Numbered from the stretch's first letter, positions 41,825-50,206 are shown. The stretch: 64,000 bases of DNA from Escherichia coli (GCF_046105845.1 NZ_CP151004.1), one strand, 5' to 3'. The notes: generated by a model not told the origin, from the sequence alone. Numbers and translations are program-made.

Positions 41825-42130
41825 TTACCTGACGTTGTATTCTTTTATGTTAACACCCTTGATACTGTATATACCTGTCCGCTTAATTCGCTTGCCCTTT
41901 TTATTCGTAATAGTTGCTGTAAGTGTACTGCAGCGAATGGAATGACGTTCATCAATCACCAGCCGAATTGCTTCTGAAGCATCTTCCACCTCTAGAAGGT
42001 CGTGAGTCTTATTTAAGCCGAATGGAACAAGGTGGAAGGCCGTTTTTCCAGATGATTTTCTGGTTATTTTTACTGGATACAACACATCACCACTTTTATG
42101 GATTAATTCAAGCTGTTCAATGTAAATCAT
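41825..42130 (-). other. AT-rich degenerate ORF downstream of the yhcG-like fragment
   Basis: 101-aa ORF in the same frame as 42218-42574 but separated from it by two in-frame stops; markedly AT-rich; no motif recognised. Confidence 0.25.
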
Positions 42131-42217
42131 GGCAACTTTCCTTCGTTTATCTGCATGAATATATAAACCGAAAATAGGAGATGCAATACAAAAGCTGTGG
42201 AAATATCAAATAGCCTC

Positions 42218-42574
42218 TCAATTTGGCAGACAGCGTCTGCCAAATCTTTGCCGATGGGAATTCTGCAGAATTTCAACATGTTGATAAAAAAGGTAAAAAA
42301 GCTTCATTTGGCGTAAGTTTTTTGCAGAGACCCCACGTTTATACCGTCGACTTAAATCCTGCGATAACCGATCAATCAGCTGTGCAGCATAAGCCGCTCT
42401 TGCCTCGCCGCCTTGTTCAAATTCGACAATTCGTCGGCCAATTTCCCAGTATGTGGCGGTCATTAACGCGTTAACACTACGTACCGTTTCCGTCCGGGCG
42501 CTATCGACCAGGTGAATAATACCGTCGTGGATTTGCTGGTAGCCTGTTGAGGTTCTCTCTGAGAGCGATTCCAT
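42218..42574 (-). pseudogene. yhcG-like (DUF1016-family) N-terminal fragment, probably a gene remnant
   Basis: 118-aa ORF whose sequence (...VNALMTATYWEIGRRIVEFEQGGEARAAYAAQLIDRLSQDLSRRY...) resembles the N-terminal domain of YhcG/DUF1016 proteins; it ends in stops with no PD-(D/E)xK domain. Confidence 0.4.
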
Positions 42575-42727
42575 TATCTGTCCCTTTATATGGCGCTGCG
42601 TTGAATAATGGAATCAGCTATACGCCGGGCATCTACCGGTAACAATCCAGATGAGCGTATTACATTGGTTTTCTTCACATTATGCGAGGCACCTTCCAGC
42701 GAGGTGTCACGTTGTGGTGAAGATAAA

Positions 42728-42760
42728 TCAAAAAAGGCCGGAGCGGGCGTATCCGGCCAG
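42728..42760 (-). terminator. rho-independent terminator of the five-gene operon
   Basis: GGCCGG...CCGGCC hairpin 7 nt after the vWA gene stop, followed on the minus strand by a T6 run. Confidence 0.8.
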
Positions 42761-42765
42761 AATTT

Positions 42766-43935
42766 TCAGGCGGTTTCTCTTGCTGTCACTACGCCATTTT
42801 GCGCAGCCCACAGATTCACATCTTCCTTACGAATGGCGGCGGCCATCATGCCGGGGAATAAATCTGGGGTACAGGCAAAGGAGGGAATACCCATGGCGGC
42901 GAGTTTTCCTGCCAGTGACCGGTCGTAAAACGGCGCACCTTCATCGCTTAAGGCCAGCAGGGTAACCACCTGTACGCCGGACTGAATCAACTCACTGGCG
43001 CGTTGCAACAGATTGCGTTCCACCCCGCCTTCGTAGAGGTCGGAAATCAGCACCAGAATGGTATTGCGCGGATCGCGAATCAAAGACTGGCAGTAGCCCA
43101 CCGCGCGGTTGATGTCGGTGCCGCCACCCAGCTGTACGCCAAACAGCAGCTCTACCGGATCGTCGAGCTTCTCTGTCATATCAACGACTGCGGTGTCGAA
43201 AACCACCAGATGCGTTTTTACCGCCGGGAGCGATGCCATTACTGCGCCAAAAATACTGGAATAGACCACCGAGGAGGCCATCGACCCACTCTGGTCGATA
43301 CATAAAATGATCTCCTTTTGCGTGCGTTGAGACTTGCGCCCGTAGCCGATCAGCGTTTCAGGAACAATACTTTTATACTCTTCCTGCCAGTGGCGCAGGT
43401 TGGCGCGAATGGTGCGCTGCCAGTCAATTTCCGCGTGGCGCGGGCGACGATTACGTACCGCACGATTAAGAGCGCCGCTTACCGCGCTACGCATTGGCTC
43501 TTCAAGCTGTTTCATCAATTGCTCGACAACTTTACGCACCACAAGCCTGGCGGTTTCTTTGGTTTTGGCCGGAATTACGCCATTCAGCGACATCAGCGTG
43601 GAGACCAGATGAACATCAGGCTGGACGTTTGCCAGCATCTCTGGCTCCAGCAGCATACTGTGCAAATTAAGACGTTCAAAGGCGTCTTTTTGCATCACCT
43701 GAACCACAGAAGAAGGGAAATACTGGCGAATATCACCCAGCCAGCGAGCGACTTTGGGTGACGATCCACCCGTGCCGCCGCGTAATCCATGTTTACCGTC
43801 TGGCTGATAGAGCGCCGCCAGCGCGGCATCAATCGCGGACTCTCTGGCATCCAGCGCCACGTTACAGGCATTGTCGGCATCTTCTCCAAGGATCAGACGC
43901 CAGCGGCGCAGCCGTTCCATTTCGTTACTCGACAT
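42766..43935 (-). CDS. von Willebrand factor A (vWA) domain protein with an intact MIDAS motif; gene 5 of the operon
   Basis: 389-aa ORF with ILCIDQSGSM (DxSxS), a downstream GGGTD and LISDLYEGG; AAGGG Shine-Dalgarno; start overlaps the upstream gene by 11 nt. Confidence 0.8.
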   Translation of the reverse strand: MSSNEMERLRRWRLILGEDADNACNVALDARESAIDAALAALYQPDGKHGLRGGTGGSSPKVARWLGDIRQYFPSSVVQVMQKDAFERLNLHSMLLEPEMLANVQPDVHLVSTLMSLNGVIPAKTKETARLVVRKVVEQLMKQLEEPMRSAVSGALNRAVRNRRPRHAEIDWQRTIRANLRHWQEEYKSIVPETLIGYGRKSQRTQKEIILCIDQSGSMASSVVYSSIFGAVMASLPAVKTHLVVFDTAVVDMTEKLDDPVELLFGVQLGGGTDINRAVGYCQSLIRDPRNTILVLISDLYEGGVERNLLQRASELIQSGVQVVTLLALSDEGAPFYDRSLAGKLAAMGIPSFACTPDLFPGMMAAAIRKEDVNLWAAQNGVVTARETA

Positions 43936-46174
43936 GATTTTCCCTTTCGTGTGGTGGCAAAGCCAGAATGCGGCGCAGTAGCGGCAGCATTAACGCGGCA
44001 CGCTGTTCATCCCATATACCGCAGGTCTCTTCTTGCTGCGCGACACGCTCGCCCTGCGCGGCGCGTTCGCCTAACTGGCGGCGTTCCGGGCTGGAAAAAC
44101 GGCCGAATGTCCGCCGCAGCATCGGCAGGATCCGGGTGAAGTGATCGTCGTTCAGACCGCTTAGCCAGGCATCGATCAACTGCCATAATTCGCTATTGTG
44201 CAGTAGCACCATCGCGCTGTCGTTGAGGAAACCTTCCGCCCATGCGGCACTTTCCGCCGGGGGATTGGCTGGCGATAGCGCCAGGTTCATCAGCGTGGTG
44301 ATCCGTTCTGTCGTTAACGTTTGCAGATCAAACAGCAGGCGCGTCGCCGTTCCGCGAAGCAGCGCGTGTGCGGTACTGCCCTCTGCCAGCACCATCAACG
44401 CCTGCAACCAGCCCGCCAACAGATCTTCGTTATCCAGCAACCGCAGCGCGGCGTGGGCGTCGATAACTTTTTCTCTCATACTGGCGGCGCTGTCGTCGTT
44501 GAGCGCCGAACAGGCTCCGGGTAGGGCGATGGCGGCGCGCGGGGCGAGGCTCATCAGTACCTGCATTACCATACCAGAGTCGGTCTGGCGCACGTTGCCG
44601 TAGCGGACAATCGCCACCAGTGGTGCCAGGGATTCCAGCAACTGTTCGATATTGCCCTGAGTGGCAGCCAGTGATTCCAGTGTATTGGCGATGGGGGCAA
44701 TCGCGGTCTGTAAATCGGCCAGTAGCACCTGTTGGATAAGCTTTGCCAGTTCCGGCAGCGTGCTGGCGTATTGCGCCCTCACAATGGCATAGCGGGAGCT
44801 GGCCTGCTCAATGCTGTTACCCCAACGGCTGGCGGTAATGATGTTCATTGCCAGTGCCGGTTCCCAGCGCAGCGACCAGACTTCGTGGAACGTCCCTTTG
44901 CTGTTATTTCCTTGTCCAGCCAGACGGCCCCAGGGAATGTCGAGTAAGGTCAGGCGATGCAGTAAATGGCTACGCGCCAGATCGCCGGGGTTGCGCAGAT
45001 CAAGATCCAGCACTTTTTCGCTGGCTTCTGCCTTCAGGCGCAGCGTTTTTTGCTGTTGCGTAATGTCGCGTTGGAGCGGCACGACGGGCGTATCATCCGG
45101 TACGCTTCCCAGCGCGTAGCCGACAATTAACTTCTGGCGAATCATCTGCATTGGCGCGCTTTCGCCCATACACACTACGGTTTGCAGCGCTTCGCAAAGT
45201 TCGTCAAGCCCCGGCTGCGGGTGATGGCGCATAATCGCCAGCGTCTGCGCCAGCCGCGCCGCTTCGATAATGTGGGCGCTGGAACAGTCGAGATCGGCTT
45301 CGCGAAACAGCCTTGCCGCGCGTGACAGCCAGCCGATATCGCGGTGAGAAGCGCCCTGATAACGCCACAGATGATCGTACCATTCCGGTGACACCACCCC
45401 TGCGCCATAACCGCTGGCGCGGCTTAACGCCTCGTAGCTCCAGGGCGTCCAGGCTGCCGCGACCTTGCACTTCGGCAAATTTTTCAGCAGTTCGTTATCA
45501 TTCTTTGCGGGCGGCAGGTTTTCCAGCGCCGGAACGTGCCACGCACCGCAGACTACCGCGATGCGCGAGAAGCCCTCTTTTTTCGCCTGACGTAGCGTCT
45601 TGCGCATATACGCTTCACGCAGTTGATCTCTGGCTGAGTTTCGGGCTTCGGGAGTTGCCTGGCGTAGGGCAATCATCGCCTCGCGAATCGCCTCGAACAG
45701 AGACAAATCATCTTCGCGTTCCTCTACTCTGTGGCTCCACCAGCTTTCCCCATCGGTGTAACCGGCGGCGCGGCCCAGCCAGTCCAGCGGATCGCCGTCG
45801 GGACTGGCTTCAACGGCATCATCGTCATCGCTTTCTTTTTCGTCATCAAGCGCGAACTGATGACTGATGGGCAAGTCCATAAAGCGCACGGCGATATTTT
45901 GCTCAAAACCATAGCGCAGCGCCTGCCATTCCGGGGAGAACGCCGCAAAGGGGTAAAACGCGGCGTGATGTGAGTCGTCCGGGGCATAAATCAGTAGCGC
46001 GACCGGCGGTTGCATCTGTTCATGCTGCATGAAAGGCAGAATGGATTCGCCGTCGGGCGGCCCTTCCACCAGCAGGCAGTCGGGCTGTAGCGTCTCCAGC
46101 GCCTTTCGCAGGCTGCGCGCGCAGCCAGGGCCATGGTGACGGATGCCAAACAAATGAACGGTTTGTTCAGTCAT
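43925..46174 (-). CDS. large uncharacterised protein, gene 4 of the operon (from memory resembles DUF5682-type, YehM-like proteins; unverified)
   Basis: 749-aa ORF with E. coli-like codon usage, an AAGG Shine-Dalgarno 9 nt upstream and an internal acidic stretch (DDEKESDDDDAVEASPDGD); no catalytic motif recognised. Confidence 0.7.
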   Translation of the reverse strand: MTEQTVHLFGIRHHGPGCARSLRKALETLQPDCLLVEGPPDGESILPFMQHEQMQPPVALLIYAPDDSHHAAFYPFAAFSPEWQALRYGFEQNIAVRFMDLPISHQFALDDEKESDDDDAVEASPDGDPLDWLGRAAGYTDGESWWSHRVEEREDDLSLFEAIREAMIALRQATPEARNSARDQLREAYMRKTLRQAKKEGFSRIAVVCGAWHVPALENLPPAKNDNELLKNLPKCKVAAAWTPWSYEALSRASGYGAGVVSPEWYDHLWRYQGASHRDIGWLSRAARLFREADLDCSSAHIIEAARLAQTLAIMRHHPQPGLDELCEALQTVVCMGESAPMQMIRQKLIVGYALGSVPDDTPVVPLQRDITQQQKTLRLKAEASEKVLDLDLRNPGDLARSHLLHRLTLLDIPWGRLAGQGNNSKGTFHEVWSLRWEPALAMNIITASRWGNSIEQASSRYAIVRAQYASTLPELAKLIQQVLLADLQTAIAPIANTLESLAATQGNIEQLLESLAPLVAIVRYGNVRQTDSGMVMQVLMSLAPRAAIALPGACSALNDDSAASMREKVIDAHAALRLLDNEDLLAGWLQALMVLAEGSTAHALLRGTATRLLFDLQTLTTERITTLMNLALSPANPPAESAAWAEGFLNDSAMVLLHNSELWQLIDAWLSGLNDDHFTRILPMLRRTFGRFSSPERRQLGERAAQGERVAQQEETCGIWDEQRAALMLPLLRRILALPPHERENHVE

Positions 46175-46191
46175 AGTGGTTGCCTTGCTGA

Positions 46192-47286
46192 TTACACAAT
46201 TTCGCGGCAGGCGCGATAGAGATCGTTCCAGTCGCTGCGCTCTTTGACGATGGTTTCCAGATATTCACGCCATACCACGTCGTCCTGCACGGGGTCTTTT
46301 ACCACCGCGCCGACCAGGCTTGCGGCAATATCCCGCGGATGCAGTACGCCGTCGCCAAAATGGCCTGCCAGCGCCATACCGTTGTTGATAACGGAGATCG
46401 CCTCCGCGGTGCTGAGAGTGCTGGTTGGCGACTTAATTTTTGTTTTGCCGTCAACCGTCAGGCCGTTTCGTAGTTCGCGGAATATCTGCACGACTCGCTG
46501 AATCTCCTTTAATGCTGGTGGTTCGGCGGGCAGCGCAAGCGCCTGGCCGAGTTCAGCGACGCGGCGAGTGACAATGTTAATCTCTTCTTCTTCGCTGGCG
46601 GGTACGGGCAAAATAACTGTGTTGAAACGACGTTTAAGCGCGGAAGAAAGTTCGTTAACACCTTTATCCCGGTTGTTGGCGGTGGCGATAACGTTAAAGC
46701 CGCGCGTCGCCTGGACCTCTTCATTCAGTTCGGGGATAGGCAGCGTTTTTTCCGACAGGATCGTGATCAGCGTGTCCTGAACATCAGCAGGAATACGCGT
46801 CAGCTCTTCTACGCGTGCAATCTGCCCGCGCGCCATCGCCCGCATCAACGGACTTTCTACCAGCGCCGAACGTGACGGACCTTTAGAGAGCAACTCCGCG
46901 TAGTTCCAGCCATAACGCATTTGTTCTTCACCGGTGCCTGCGGTGCCCTGAATAATTAACGTTGAGTCGCCGCTGATGGCGGCCGCCAGATGTTCAGAGA
47001 CCCAGGATTTCGCAGTGCCGGGTACGCCATACAACAGCAGTGCGCGATCGGTTGCCAGAGTGGCAACGGCAGTTTCGATAATCCGCCGGTTGCCGATATA
47101 TTTCGGCGTGACCTCAAAGCCATTTTCCAGCTGCCCGCCCAACAGATAGGTGGCGACGGACCATGGAGAAATGGCCCAGTTTTCCGGGCGCGGATGAGTA
47201 TCGTTTTTTTGCAGCTCATCCAGTTCTTCAGCAAATTGTTGTTCGGCATGTCGGCGTAAAACGGCGGCAGTAGCGGTGGAAGTCAT
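46192..47286 (-). CDS. MoxR-family AAA+ ATPase, gene 3 of the operon
   Basis: 364-aa product from the ATG at 47286 (ATGA overlap with the upstream stop; GGAG Shine-Dalgarno). Walker A GVPGTAKS, Walker B region IARVEEL, sensor-1 NVIATANN, arginine motif ALKRRF. Confidence 0.85.
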   Translation of the reverse strand: MTSTATAAVLRRHAEQQFAEELDELQKNDTHPRPENWAISPWSVATYLLGGQLENGFEVTPKYIGNRRIIETAVATLATDRALLLYGVPGTAKSWVSEHLAAAISGDSTLIIQGTAGTGEEQMRYGWNYAELLSKGPSRSALVESPLMRAMARGQIARVEELTRIPADVQDTLITILSEKTLPIPELNEEVQATRGFNVIATANNRDKGVNELSSALKRRFNTVILPVPASEEEEINIVTRRVAELGQALALPAEPPALKEIQRVVQIFRELRNGLTVDGKTKIKSPTSTLSTAEAISVINNGMALAGHFGDGVLHPRDIAASLVGAVVKDPVQDDVVWREYLETIVKERSDWNDLYRACREIV

Positions 47287-48887
47287 AAAGTAGTTTCTCC
47301 GACAAAAAACGAATGAAGTTGAATTCGGTGCGCCAGCGTGGCGCTCAGGGCAGTAAAGGCTGCCTCGCAATAAGGCGTTTGTTGTGCGTCGTGCGGCCAC
47401 TTTTCAATGACATCATTGAGGACTTCGGGGGCCAGCAGGCAGGCGAAATCACTCATCACATGGCGCAGGGCGTAGTCAAAGCGCGCGGAATCATGTTTCA
47501 CCCAACGGTGCAGCTCCGTGACCATTTGCTGGCTCAGGCGCAGGCTAAAGAGCGACGCATCCGGCGGTAACAGGCTGATGTAGCGATGTAAATGTTCGCC
47601 GCCCACCACTGAGAACAATGACCGTAACATCGGCTCGTGTTCTTCTACAGGCAGACATTGCAAAAGCTCAAAGGCGTTAATCTTCACGCCTGCAGTATGA
47701 TGAATGCTCATTCCGACGGGCAGCATGGCGAGAAACGCCTGCGCCCACTGCGGATTTTTTTCGCGCAGTACGGCGTGATACCAGGCGCGCAGTAGCGCCT
47801 CCTGCCAGTCGGTTTTCCCGGCCCAGCGCAGCAGTTCAACGGGGGTAGCCTGCAGTTGCGTTTGCCACCAGTCGAGCGGAACCGCTGCAACTATCTGATA
47901 CAGCCACCATGCGCGCTGGCCCAACTTTTCGCCTTTGGGCTTAGTTTCTTCCAGCGCATCGGCCTTCCACTCTGGTAAGAACGCCTCCGGGGCATCAAGG
48001 GCGACGCGCAGCGTTTTTTCTCCGCGCAGTAAACCTTTTCGCCGCGCAAGCCAGCTCTCAGGATCGGGGGAGGAATTGAGCAGCGGCGCTAACCTGGACT
48101 TCATGCGCCAGACCCAGGCGCTTTCTGGCAGACAAAGCAGTAATCGTGCCGCAGTTTGCCGCACCTCTTTGCTGCGATCGGATAATGTCTGTTCCAGAAA
48201 GGCTTCGTCGTATTGGGAGATCTCCACTTCCAGCACAGCCAGCAGCTGTGCGCGTTCGCGGGCATCCAGCGAACTCATCTCCTGCGCCAGCCGATCGCGA
48301 CCCTGTTCCGGGGCGCGAATGCGCATTTGCGTCAGATATTGCAGACGCTGTTCGGACGTGCCGTGCAGCCACATTTCTTCATCCAGCGGAGCGTCAACGG
48401 AGGCAAGAAAATAGCGCCAGTCGGCGTTAATCTGCGCCAGCCAGCGCCCGCGAGCGCCGAGGACATTGGGCAGAATGCCGCGTATTGATGGATTTTGTAC
48501 GCCGTAATTCAGCAGTGCCGGTAACAGCAGGGGCGGAGAAAGAAGCTGACGCTGGACCAGGTGATCAAGCGCTGACCACAGTAAACGCGGCGGCCCTTCT
48601 GCCAGCAACAGATGCAGCAGTCCCGCAAAAGCCGGGTTGTTTATTGGCTCGGCATTTTCTTTATCGATTTCCGGCAGCGGTGCGGGGTCAATCGCCTGCG
48701 GCTCCCAGCCAGCCAGATGGCAGAGTGCCAGAACGCCCGCCGAGCGCAGTAGCTGTTGCTCTGCAGATGTGTTATTCGCCAGTTCAGACAGTAGCAGCCC
48801 AATCTCACTTTGCGACGCTGACGGTGTAAACGCTTTTTTGTCTGTGCCGAGTAGCGCTGTGCGGGTTAAATTTTTCCATTCGTTCAT
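47283..48887 (-). CDS. uncharacterised Leu/Trp-rich protein, gene 2 of the operon (from memory resembles DUF5691-type proteins; unverified)
   Basis: 534-aa product from the ATG at 48887 (ATGA overlap with the SWIM gene stop; GGAGG Shine-Dalgarno 8 nt upstream); the track ORF begins at an upstream TTG. Confidence 0.7.
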   Translation of the reverse strand: MNEWKNLTRTALLGTDKKAFTPSASQSEIGLLLSELANNTSAEQQLLRSAGVLALCHLAGWEPQAIDPAPLPEIDKENAEPINNPAFAGLLHLLLAEGPPRLLWSALDHLVQRQLLSPPLLLPALLNYGVQNPSIRGILPNVLGARGRWLAQINADWRYFLASVDAPLDEEMWLHGTSEQRLQYLTQMRIRAPEQGRDRLAQEMSSLDARERAQLLAVLEVEISQYDEAFLEQTLSDRSKEVRQTAARLLLCLPESAWVWRMKSRLAPLLNSSPDPESWLARRKGLLRGEKTLRVALDAPEAFLPEWKADALEETKPKGEKLGQRAWWLYQIVAAVPLDWWQTQLQATPVELLRWAGKTDWQEALLRAWYHAVLREKNPQWAQAFLAMLPVGMSIHHTAGVKINAFELLQCLPVEEHEPMLRSLFSVVGGEHLHRYISLLPPDASLFSLRLSQQMVTELHRWVKHDSARFDYALRHVMSDFACLLAPEVLNDVIEKWPHDAQQTPYCEAAFTALSATLAHRIQLHSFFVGETTL

Positions 48888-50206
48888 TGTGCGCCTCCGG
48901 TTGCCCAAATCACGCTACCGGCAAGCCAGGCGCTACAGGGCGTCAGTTGCTGACCGTCCCATTCCCCCATTAGCATAAACGGCGCGCCGCCGCTGGCAGC
49001 CAGTAACCGCCAACCCTCGTCCGATGACAGGAGCGTCGGTAAGTGCTGGCCCTGTGTCGAGACGAATCGCCAGCCGCTCTCGTGCGGGTAAATCAATATT
49101 TCGCTTACTCGCAGCGGCAGAGGCCATTGCCAGGGATTCGCGCTAAGCCGCTGCGCCATGTCATGCAGCGCGTCCGGGAGGGGTAATTCTGCAAGCGGGA
49201 ATCTTTCACCGCGGGTAAACGGCTCCACAACCCGCGCCCGTAGCGGTGATGCGCCAGGGAAAAAGGCAAGCGCGCCCTGGCAGACTTGCCCGGTGATAAA
49301 GTGCTGGGGAAAGTTTTTACCACCGTGTGAATAGTCCAGCAGTAGCGCGGTGCGGTGGCTCTTTTCTCCGTACAACCAGACCCGGCGTCGCCACAGATTA
49401 TTCTCTTCTTGCGCGCTTTGACCTAAGATCTGCCAGTTATCGAGGCAGGTTAATCCGTCAGTGACGTCGTGTTTTTCCGGGGGTATTCCCAATGCCGCAT
49501 GGAGATCGCTAAGTTGTGCCGGGGATAACATTTGTTGCTGGCGCCAGGCGTCAATAATCAGCTGTAGCTGCCCCAGTTCTTTGCACAGGCTCGATGGCCA
49601 TACCTCGGCGGTAGTAAAAAGAGTGGTCAGATTGTTCAGGCGAGCGGCAATTCCCGGTAGTTGGGCGTCGACCATGCGGGCGGCGATCCCGGCAAAAGGC
49701 AACTGTTGTGCAGAGATCTGCGCCAGACCGTGGCGGATCAGGTCGTGCATCCACTGTTCGAGGAAATCCAGCCCCGCCGTCATTTTTTGGTTACGTGCCG
49801 CTTCCCGTTTGGCGGCAGCCTGCGGGTCGGCAGCTTTTGCCTCAGCCTGCTCTTTCTTCTCTTCTTTGTGAACCGCCCGCTGCTGGCGCGAGGTTAGCCA
49901 CTCGCTTACCCATTCCGGCGGCTCGCCAGCGGTGAAACTTGCGGTGTGTTGCACCTGGAGCAAAAGCAACGCAAGGCTATGTTTACAGGGGAATTTACGG
50001 CTGGGGCAGGAACATTTACAGGCCAGATCCTGTCTGTCGATTCGTACCTGATAAGGGCGGGAGCCGCTACCTTTACACTCTCCCCAGAAGGCGGTCTCGC
50101 TATATCCCAGCGTCGGCCATTTTGCGGGGGCAACCAGGCCACGAGCCGCTTTAACCGAGGCGTCATCGGGCGCCAGGGCTTGCACTGATTCAACGGTCAG
50201 TTCCAT
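48884..50206 (-). CDS. SWIM zinc-finger domain protein, gene 1 of the operon
   Basis: 440-aa ORF with a CxCxnCxH motif (CKCSCPSRKFPCKH) near residue 60, then a Lys/Glu/Ala-rich charged linker and a C-terminal domain of unknown function. Confidence 0.8.
   Translation of the reverse strand: MELTVESVQALAPDDASVKAARGLVAPAKWPTLGYSETAFWGECKGSGSRPYQVRIDRQDLACKCSCPSRKFPCKHSLALLLLQVQHTASFTAGEPPEWVSEWLTSRQQRAVHKEEKKEQAEAKAADPQAAAKREAARNQKMTAGLDFLEQWMHDLIRHGLAQISAQQLPFAGIAARMVDAQLPGIAARLNNLTTLFTTAEVWPSSLCKELGQLQLIIDAWRQQQMLSPAQLSDLHAALGIPPEKHDVTDGLTCLDNWQILGQSAQEENNLWRRRVWLYGEKSHRTALLLDYSHGGKNFPQHFITGQVCQGALAFFPGASPLRARVVEPFTRGERFPLAELPLPDALHDMAQRLSANPWQWPLPLRVSEILIYPHESGWRFVSTQGQHLPTLLSSDEGWRLLAASGGAPFMLMGEWDGQQLTPCSAWLAGSVIWATGGAQ

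What the first reader, a model, noticed from the sequence alone, without database searches (positions are those of the whole stretch)
42766..43935. vWA protein has a complete MIDAS site and an unassigned N-terminal extension
The DxSxS (DQSGSM), Thr (GGGTD) and Asp (SDLYEGG) MIDAS elements are all present in the C-terminal half. The N-terminal ~190 residues have no recognised fold and may dock onto the ATPase or a client protein.
Basis: seen in the sequence. Interest (0 to 1): 0.35.

Follow-up and report, generated by a model that had tools for sequence, protein, structure and literature searches.

The report
YehP-like MIDAS adaptor of MoxR ATPase
This gene encodes an ordinary, already annotated member of a widespread bacterial protein family (a relative of E. 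coli YehP and of CoxE) that carries an intact metal-dependent binding site and most likely links a neighbouring ATP-driven motor protein to its target; its first 115 residues form a conserved helical domain that nobody has characterised.

Summary
Window 42766-43935 (minus strand) encodes a 389-aa protein with a C-terminal von Willebrand A domain. Its MIDAS residues (D214, S216, S218, T273, D299) are complete and are kept in 75-76 of 76 homologues of 33-86% identity.

About 206 residues precede the first VWA strand, and they fall into two parts:
- Residues 116-206 are a long helix plus an arginine-rich segment. This part is shared with true CoxE and is partly inside Pfam VWA_CoxE.
- Residues 1-115 are a well-predicted helical domain with no Pfam family, no specific solved-structure match and no detectable homology to the CoxE N-terminus. 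It is as conserved as the VWA domain.

The protein is a 38%-identical, full-length paralogue of E. coli YehP. It is the last gene of a translationally coupled five-gene operon: SWIM protein, DUF5691, YehL-subfamily MoxR ATPase, DUF5682 (YehM-like), VWA. The full island occurs in 33 of 5426 complete E. coli genomes.

The closest solved relatives of both the ATPase and the VWA domain are Midasin and NorQ/NorD. I therefore infer a MIDAS adaptor for an AAA+ remodelling machine. The role of the N-domain was not tested.

This is a new member of a known kind, and interest is low to moderate.

The parts
42766..43935 (-). Whole CDS: 389-aa YehP-like / CoxE-like VWA protein
   Evidence: ORF with ATG start. 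Pfam VWA_CoxE E 2.7e-52. Same CDS annotated in E. coli SMS-3-5. 38% identical to YehP over residues 9-357.
43591..43935 (-). Residues 1-115: YehP-type helical N-domain. Near-invariant positions W12, L14, L16, G17 (RWRLxLG), L39, Y43, W65, F73, Q82. Includes a lower-confidence loop at about residues 44-59.
43318..43590 (-). Residues 116-206: long helix (about 123-158) plus an arginine-rich pre-beta1 segment with the conserved motif IDWxRTIRxNL (T175, N179, L180). Net charge +10.
   Evidence: Pfam VWA_CoxE starts at residue 149. On its own it is homologous to CoxE 156-228 (hhalign 79.5%, E 1.5e-5). Composition. It occupies the position of the NorD 'finger' (residues 403-448, just before the VWA core; PMC13036017); that equivalence is an inference.
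42799..43317 (-). Residues 207-379: VWA (Rossmann-like) domain, beta1 to alpha7
43282..43296 (-). MIDAS motif 1, D214-Q-S216-G-S218
   Evidence: Translation check. D, S and S each kept in 75 of 76 homologues.
43117..43119 (-). MIDAS Thr273 (in GGGTD)
   Evidence: Translation check. Invariant, 76 of 76.
43039..43041 (-). MIDAS Asp299 (in SDLYEGG)
   Evidence: Translation check. Kept in 75 of 76.
43925..46174 (-). Upstream partner gene: DUF5682 protein (749 aa, YehM-like). Its stop overlaps the VWA start by 11 nt.
   Evidence: Pfam DUF5682 E 7e-267. 29% identical to YehM. Natural DUF5682-VWA fusions P0238, P0249, P0256, P0220, P0266. Junction sequence.
46192..47286 (-). YehL-subfamily MoxR AAA+ ATPase (364 aa)
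   Evidence: Pfam AAA_5 E 1.2e-38. 40% identical to E. coli YehL. Best PDB sequence matches are Midasin AAA domains (E 1e-15) and NorQ (E 5.5e-6). Start codon checked.
47283..48887 (-). DUF5691 protein (534 aa). ATGA overlaps with both neighbouring genes.
   Evidence: Pfam DUF5691 E 4e-121. Junctions. No PDB relative.
48884..50206 (-). SWIM zinc-finger protein (440 aa), first gene of the operon
   Evidence: Pfam SWIM E 6.6e-7. Shares only the SWIM motif with YehQ. No PDB relative.

Best explanation
The gene encodes the MIDAS-bearing adaptor subunit of a YehL-subfamily MoxR AAA+ machine. It is a paralogue of the E. coli K-12 YehL-YehM-YehP module.

Shown:
- The protein has three layers: a family-specific helical N-domain (1-115), a basic long-helix/pre-beta1 segment shared with CoxE (116-206), and a VWA domain with a complete, conserved MIDAS site (207-379).
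- It is co-transcribed, and by overlapping start and stop codons probably co-translated, with a YehL-like ATPase, a DUF5682 protein, a DUF5691 protein and a SWIM protein.

Inferred, by analogy with NorQ/NorD and Midasin:
- One VWA protein sits on the hexameric ATPase ring.
- The basic segment just before beta1 couples it to the ring, as the counterpart of the NorD 'finger' in the pore.
- The MIDAS metal ion captures an acidic side chain of a client.
- ATP hydrolysis then remodels that client.
- The most likely partner or client is the DUF5682 protein encoded immediately upstream, which is fused to the VWA protein in some organisms.

The N-domain most likely acts as a second attachment point, to the lid of the ATPase or to the partner protein, as the unrelated N-domain of NorD does. 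The cellular process served is unknown.
For: - Complete and conserved MIDAS site.
- High-confidence three-part model.
- Best structural neighbours of the VWA part are the AAA+-coupled MIDAS domains of MDN1/Rea1 and NorD. They align 191-200 residues, against about 150-160 for classical VWA domains.
- The ATPase's best solved sequence relatives are Midasin and NorQ.
- Full-length paralogy to YehP, YehL and YehM. YehL is a recognised MoxR subfamily (PMC3893208).
- Overlapping gene junctions.
- DUF5682-VWA fusion proteins in five different 50%-identity clusters. One lies in an AAA_5 - fusion - 763-aa gene order.
- The same AAA_5 - DUF5682 - VWA order at 35% identity and on Rhizobium, Methylosinus and Streptomyces replicons.
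- Experimental NorQD mechanism: finger in the pore, N-domain on the ATPase small subdomain, MIDAS needed for the client but not for ATPase binding (PMC13036017 and PMC9976466).
Against: - I could not see whether the pre-beta1 segment protrudes as a finger or whether the N-domain covers the MIDAS face.
- DSSP shows only a tiny hairpin there (model residues 182-183 and 188-189), not a long finger.
- Five of seven distant full-length homologues that I looked up are not next to any DUF5682 gene. Four of these have no ATPase gene within the stretch recovered, and one is near an AAA_3 MoxR. The N-domain therefore cannot be a DUF5682-specific dock in all members.
- The fusion proteins are singleton metagenomic predictions.
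- The N-domain shows no similarity to the NorD N-domain, so the analogy is functional only.
Confidence: 0.6

Rival explanations
1. The N-domain is an intramolecular regulatory cap. It packs on the VWA domain and controls access to, or the open/closed state of, the MIDAS site. It is not a docking site for the ATPase or DUF5682.
For: - The full-length model has a fixed inter-domain geometry: pTM 0.85, against 0.67 for residues 1-204 modelled alone.
- The N-domain is retained with an intact MIDAS site in 'solo' genes that have no ATPase or DUF5682 gene nearby.
- It is conserved as strongly as the VWA domain.
Against: No coordinates were available, so contact with the MIDAS face is unknown. Retention in solo genes is equally explained if the partners are encoded elsewhere in those genomes.
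Confidence: 0.15
2. The operon is a metal-cofactor insertion system of the CoxD/CoxE, NorQ/NorD or chelatase type. The VWA protein escorts a metalloenzyme, possibly the DUF5682 protein, during metal-centre assembly.
For: - Membership of Pfam VWA_CoxE, and homology to true CoxE over residues ~116-348, probability 98.3%.
- CoxD/E and NorQ/D act in metal insertion (PMC4240915, PMC13036017).
- The paralogous yeh locus of K-12 lies beside molR, a gene linked to molybdate utilisation (cited in PMC8533742 and PMC3950696). This is a lead only.
Against: - No cox, nor, cbb or chelatase client gene lies in the neighbourhood; the flanks are gltBD and nanATEKQ.
- The N-terminus is unrelated to that of CoxE.
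- No metal-binding family was detected in DUF5682, DUF5691 or the SWIM protein beyond the SWIM zinc finger.
Confidence: 0.15
3. The five-gene island is a biological-conflict (for example anti-phage) system. In it the MoxR-VWA pair acts as a threshold switch, as proposed for the MoxR-vWA ternary systems of Kaur et al. 2020.
For: - Patchy distribution as an island: the full island is in 33 of 5426 complete E. coli genomes, and it replaces gltF-yhcADEF.
- About 78% protein identity across beta- and gamma-proteobacteria suggests horizontal spread.
- Kaur et al. derive their conflict systems from CoxD-CoxE-like pairs.
- SWIM domains could bind nucleic acid (from general knowledge, not tested here).
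Against: - No PADLOC model matches any of the five proteins above noise.
- The bpMoxR hit on the ATPase is below Pfam's cut-off, 21.4 against 27 bits.
- There is no effector domain C-terminal to the VWA domain and no VMAP or iSTAND component.
- No paper mentions DUF5682 or DUF5691.
Confidence: 0.08

Closest known systems
E. coli K-12 YehP (with YehL and YehM; YehL subfamily of MoxR ATPases)
   Same: - Full-length alignment: 38% identity over residues 9-357, including the RWRLILG N-terminus and a complete MIDAS site (DLSGS, GGGT, SD).
- The partner ATPase is 40% identical to YehL and the DUF5682 protein 29% identical to YehM.
- A SWIM protein is present in both loci.
   Different: - Gene order is permuted: SWIM and DUF5691 come first here, whereas yehQ comes last in K-12.
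- The SWIM proteins share only the zinc-finger motif.
- This island has DUF5691, whereas the yeh locus has the DUF4132 proteins YehI/MolR.
- The +1 frameshift cassette reported in yehP is not conserved here (PMC2790909).
- The function of YehP itself is unknown.
CoxE of Afipia (Oligotropha) carboxidovorans, partner of the MoxR ATPase CoxD
   Same: - Same Pfam family (VWA_CoxE), similar length (399 aa) and a C-terminal VWA domain with a full MIDAS site.
- Profile-profile homology over residues ~116-348 (probability 98.3%, E 1.7e-14), including the arginine-rich segment before beta1.
   Different: - The first ~115 residues show no detectable homology to the first 155 residues of CoxE (hhalign probability 0.2%).
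- There is no cox gene context.
- CoxD is adjacent to coxE, whereas here DUF5682 lies between the ATPase and VWA genes.
NorD (with NorQ) and the Midasin/Rea1 MIDAS domain
   Same: - The ATPase is most similar in sequence to Midasin AAA domains and to NorQ.
- The architecture is an N-terminal domain plus a C-terminal VWA domain that works with an AAA_5-type ring.
   Different: - There is no sequence-level relationship, even with a profile.
- NorD is larger (about 640 aa) and has a long disordered linker that is absent here.
- The N-domains are unrelated.
- Presence of a pore-inserting finger could not be verified.

Membership tests
VWA domain with functional MIDAS site | Rossmann-like beta1-alpha1...beta6-alpha6 fold | tested here: met
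   [not shown]
VWA domain with functional MIDAS site | DxSxS, Thr and Asp metal ligands present and conserved | tested here: met
   D214, S216, S218, T273 and D299 are present. They are kept in 75-76 of 76 homologues. Actual metal binding was not tested.
Pfam PF05762 VWA_CoxE | Score above the curated gathering threshold (26.4 bits) | tested here: met
   177.9 bits, E 2.7e-52, residues 149-359.
CoxE proper (CO-dehydrogenase maturation factor) | Encoded in a coxMSL-coxD-coxE-coxF cluster | tested here: not met
   The neighbours are DUF5682, a YehL-like ATPase, DUF5691, a SWIM protein, gltD and nan genes. Compare the cox cluster of pHCG3.
CoxE proper (CO-dehydrogenase maturation factor) | Homology along the whole length, including the CoxE N-terminal domain | tested here: not met
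   Homology covers only residues ~116-348. N-domain against CoxE residues 1-155 gives hhalign probability 0.2%.
YehP family / YehL-subfamily MoxR system | Full-length similarity to E. coli YehP | tested here: met
   38% identity, E 1e-80, residues 9-357.
YehP family / YehL-subfamily MoxR system | Operon with a YehL-like AAA_5 ATPase and a YehM-like DUF5682 protein | tested here: met
   40% identity to YehL and 29% to YehM, in the same strand and operon.
YehP family / YehL-subfamily MoxR system | YehQ-like SWIM protein and DUF4132 (YehI/MolR) neighbours | tested here: inconclusive
   A SWIM protein is present but shares only the motif with YehQ. There is no DUF4132; DUF5691 is present instead.
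MoxR-associated VWA adaptors with 'finger-in-pore' binding (NorD, CbbO, Midasin MIDAS) | Finger-like extension next to the VWA core that enters the AAA+ pore | not testable with these tools
   A conserved 48-residue basic segment occupies the equivalent position.
MoxR-associated VWA adaptors with 'finger-in-pore' binding (NorD, CbbO, Midasin MIDAS) | Physical complex with a hexameric MoxR ATPase | not testable with these tools
   Only operon linkage and analogy support this.
MoxR-vWA ternary conflict systems (VMAP/iSTAND; Kaur et al. 2020) | bpMoxR-type ATPase, a third VMAP or iSTAND component, and effector domains C-terminal to the vWA domain | tested here: not met
   bpMoxR scores 21.4 bits, below the 27-bit cut-off. 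The VWA protein ends about 10 residues after the domain. No such third component was found in Pfam scans. No PADLOC hits.

The most novel reading that the evidence does not exclude
Residues 1-115 would define a previously undescribed helical domain family. It marks a large YehP-type branch of the CoxE-like VWA proteins (637 50%-identity cluster representatives at E <= 1e-30) and is distinct from the CoxE N-domain. The SWIM / DUF5691 / YehL / DUF5682 / YehP operon would then be an uncharacterised Midasin-like AAA+-MIDAS remodelling machine. Its client and cellular role (metal-centre assembly, DNA-damage response or conflict) would be new biology.
Probability: 0.25. Interest if true: 0.55.

Novelty: new member of a known kind. 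Interest (0 to 1): 0.25.

Why it matters
By itself it matters little. The protein is a typical, already annotated member of the VWA_CoxE / YehP family, and an intact MIDAS site is the family norm.

The modest value lies in three points:
- The 'extension' is now split into a CoxE-shared basic coupling segment and a YehP-type N-domain that no database describes.
- Both the ATPase and the VWA protein of this operon point to the Midasin/NorQD type of machine. That gives concrete mutants and complexes to test.
- The YehL subfamily has been listed among the seven MoxR subfamilies for years without any known function. E. coli strains such as SMS-3-5 carry two paralogous copies, which could be used for genetics.

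Tried and rejected
- **Solved-structure sequence searches.** Single-sequence and profile searches with the VWA protein found nothing meaningful. Single-sequence searches with the DUF5682, DUF5691 and SWIM proteins also found nothing.
- **Foldseek against AFDB50.** This would have shown remote structural relatives of the N-domain, but the library was not available.
- **Homology of the N-domain to the CoxE N-domain.** Rejected: hhalign probability 0.2%. Kaur et al. mention a '4-helical N-terminal domain' in CoxE-type vWA proteins; I could not test structurally whether the first four helices here correspond to it.
- **Defence-system assignment.** PADLOC gave only sub-threshold IetA noise on the ATPase.
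- **Literature.** No paper mentions DUF5682 or DUF5691, and none combines SWIM, MoxR and vWA.
- **DUF5682 as a TraB/Tiki-like hydrolase.** This was a motif resemblance from memory. hmmscan at E <= 10 returned only DUF5682, so the idea is not supported.
- **dN/dS against SMS-3-5.** Uninformative, with only 4 differences in 1170 nt.
- **Promoter and terminator scans around the operon ends.** Nothing above the shuffle expectation.
- **yehP +1 frameshift site.** Not conserved in this gene.

Full report
**1. The observation**

Window 42766-43935 holds one long ORF on the minus strand: ATG start, 389 aa. The plus-strand frame is full of stops.

- D214-Q-S216-G-S218
- T273 in GGGTD
- D299 in SDLYEGG

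Pfam assigns VWA_CoxE to residues 149-359 (177.9 bits, E 2.7e-52) and VWA_2 to residues 209-299. NCBIfam has no model for the protein.

I aligned 76 full-length homologues of 33-86% identity. They were drawn from a 5.8-billion-protein search and from an exhaustive search of 1.84 billion cluster representatives. The five MIDAS residues are kept in 75, 75, 75, 76 and 75 sequences. That alignment and both structure models lack Met1, so their residue numbers are one lower than the true numbers used in this report.

**2. Anatomy of the protein**

An AlphaFold2 model built on that alignment is confident: mean pLDDT 91.9, pTM 0.85.

A complete VWA fold, beta1 to alpha6, occupies model residues 206-367. 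Everything before it is outside the fold:
- helices at 2-23, 29-42, 59-71, 74-87, 91-115 and a 36-residue helix at 122-157
- a lower-confidence loop at 43-58
- an ordered but irregular segment at 158-205, with one short helix and a tiny hairpin

Column conservation is about the same in the N-terminal part (0.46) as in the VWA part (0.50). Near-invariant N-terminal positions are W12, L14, L16 and G17 (RWRLxLG), L39, Y43, W65, F73, and T175, N179, L180 (RTIRxNL).

**3. Is the N-terminal region really unassigned?**

Only in part.

I fetched genuine CoxE from the CO-dehydrogenase cluster of plasmid pHCG3 and built a CoxE alignment. Profile-profile comparison gives probability 98.3%, E 1.7e-14. The alignment starts only at model residue ~115 and runs to 347.

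Tested piecewise:
- Residues 115-205 match CoxE 156-228 on their own (79.5%, E 1.5e-5).
- Residues 1-114 do not match CoxE 1-155 (probability 0.2%).

The middle segment is strikingly basic: 14.3% Arg, net charge +10. The N-domain has net charge -3 and the VWA domain -8.

The resulting picture has three layers:
- Residues 1-115: a conserved helical domain with no family and no fold assignment.
- Residues 116-206: a module shared with CoxE, half of it inside the Pfam model.
- Residues 207-379: the VWA domain.

Kaur et al. (PMC7159879) mention a '4-helical N-terminal domain' in CoxE-type vWA proteins. The AFDB library was unavailable, so I could not test whether the first four helices here correspond to it.

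**4. What the protein is related to**

A tblastn search of plasmid records turned up E. coli yehP. Direct comparison gives 38% identity over residues 9-357, E 1e-80. The match includes the LQRWRLILGE N-terminus and a complete MIDAS site.

The other genes of the operon match too:
- The ATPase is 40% identical to YehL.
- The DUF5682 protein is 29% identical to YehM.
- The SWIM protein shares only the zinc-finger motif with YehQ.

YehL is one of the seven recognised MoxR subfamilies and, with RavA, one of the two MoxR proteins of E. coli K-12 (PMC3893208).

The full-length family is large. There are 2531 cluster representatives at E <= 0.001 and 637 at E <= 1e-30. Most of the 150 best cover nearly the whole query, even at 34-40% identity.

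**5. Genomic context**

The gene is the last of five on the minus strand:

| Gene | Window coordinates |
|---|---|
| SWIM zinc-finger protein | 48884-50206 |
| DUF5691 protein | 47283-48887 |
| YehL-like AAA_5 ATPase | 46192-47286 |
| DUF5682 protein | 43925-46174 |
| VWA protein | 42766-43935 |

The first two junctions are ATGA overlaps. The DUF5682 stop overlaps the VWA start by 11 nt, and a GGG-rich Shine-Dalgarno-like stretch lies upstream. This argues for translational coupling.

The island lies between gltD and nanQ. K-12 has gltF-yhcADEF-yhcG in that position. Only a DUF1016_N remnant of yhcG remains here.

The full island is present in 33 of 5426 complete E. coli genomes, for example SMS-3-5, where RefSeq annotates the same five CDSs.

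**6. Linkage to DUF5682, and its limits**

Five representatives from different 50%-identity clusters are DUF5682-VWA fusion proteins that retain the whole N-domain. One further representative is a VWA-SWIM fusion. One of the DUF5682-VWA fusions sits in an AAA_5 - fusion - 763-aa gene order. These are singleton metagenomic predictions, so the evidence is only suggestive.

The AAA_5 - DUF5682 - VWA order recurs at 35% identity, together with a DUF4132 gene, which is the Yeh-type arrangement. VWA-DUF5682 adjacency is also annotated on Rhizobium, Methylosinus and Streptomyces replicons.

However, five of the seven distant full-length homologues that I looked up have no DUF5682 gene nearby. Four have no ATPase gene within the stretch recovered, and one is near an AAA_3-type MoxR. 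All five were in the 76-sequence alignment, in which only one sequence departs from the MIDAS consensus. The N-domain is therefore an integral part of the protein, not an accessory specific to DUF5682.

**7. How it probably works**

These align 191-200 residues, against about 150-160 for classical VWA domains. The extra residues must come from outside the core.

Independently, the ATPase's best solved sequence relatives are Midasin AAA domains (E 1e-15) and NorQ (E 5.5e-6). Both halves of the pair thus point to the same class of machine.

What is known for NorQ/NorD (PMC9976466, PMC13036017):
- Cryo-EM shows one NorD on a NorQ hexamer.
- A 46-residue finger just N-terminal of the VWA core (residues 403-448) sits in the pore.
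- The NorD N-domain binds the small helical subdomain of a NorQ protomer.
- MIDAS mutants still bind NorQ but cannot mature the client.

By analogy I infer four things. The protein is the adaptor of the YehL-like ring. The conserved basic segment 160-206 is the ring-coupling element. The MIDAS ion captures an acidic residue of the client. The N-domain is a second anchor. None of these steps was tested here, and the DSSP string shows no long hairpin finger.

**8. Comparison, novelty and scores**

- The protein meets the tests for a MIDAS-competent VWA domain, for Pfam VWA_CoxE and for the YehP family.
- It fails the tests for CoxE proper, both on context and on the N-terminus.
- It fails the tests for the MoxR-vWA conflict systems of Kaur et al.: bpMoxR is below threshold, there is no third component and there is no C-terminal effector.
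- No paper mentions DUF5682 or DUF5691, and the function of YehP is unknown (PMC2790909).

The finding is a correct but ordinary description of a family-typical architecture: a new member of a known kind. Residual interest lies in the undescribed N-domain and in the unknown role of the YehL-type machines. I score interest at 0.25. The most novel reading, a new domain family in an uncharacterised Midasin-like bacterial machine with a new cellular role, has probability about 0.25 and interest 0.55 if true.

Noticed in passing
window 42218-50206, compared with K-12 locus L013: The five-gene island occupies the site where K-12 has gltF-yhcA-yhcD-yhcE-yhcF-yhcG. Only a 118-aa DUF1016_N remnant of yhcG is left (42218-42574). 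The full island is in 33 of 5426 complete E. coli genomes.
   Followed up: yes
window 42766-43935 compared with L001 4023-5192: The VWA gene differs from the SMS-3-5 copy at only 4 of 1170 nt (3 synonymous, plus D46E). The island as a whole is about 97.5% identical. Divergence along the island is uneven, which may reflect recombination.
   Followed up: no
window about 43080-43100 (codons 279-284), compared with L004 yehP: [quoted passage not shown]
   Followed up: yes
P0238, P0249, P0256/P0391, P0220, P0266, P0244; loci L011, L012: Metagenomic proteins fuse DUF5682 to the complete YehP-type protein, and one fuses the VWA protein to a SWIM domain. Each is a singleton cluster. One sits in an AAA_5 - fusion - 763-aa operon.
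   Followed up: partly
L002, L003, L007, L008, L009: Full-length YehP-type proteins (34-45% identical, N-domain retained) occur as 'solo' genes with no DUF5682 gene nearby and, in four of five cases, no ATPase gene within the stretch recovered. One is near an AAA_3 MoxR with DUF4129 and DUF4350 genes.
   Followed up: partly
window 43925-46174 (DUF5682 N-terminus): The motifs GIRHHGPG and VVCGAWHVPAL reminded me of TraB/Tiki-type hydrolase motifs (from memory only). hmmscan at E <= 10 returned only DUF5682, and the PDB sequence search found nothing.
   Followed up: partly
window 41825-42130 and 42000-42999: A 101-aa minus-strand ORF with no Pfam hit lies in a lower-GC stretch (46.8% against about 55-60% around it) between nanQ and the yhcG remnant. 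SMS-3-5 has different small hypothetical CDSs at this position.
   Followed up: no
L004 (E. coli yeh locus) and the literature: The K-12 yeh locus places the DUF4132 gene yehI upstream of yehLMPQ. molR/yehH, which carries a WGR domain, is reported to be linked to molybdate utilisation and to the LexA regulon. In Deinococcus, a DUF4132 gene (DRA0166) and a WGR-domain gene (DR2173) are induced on DdrO depletion (PMC8533742, PMC3950696). These are leads for the function of the paralogous system. In L004 yehM appears split into two ORFs.
   Followed up: no
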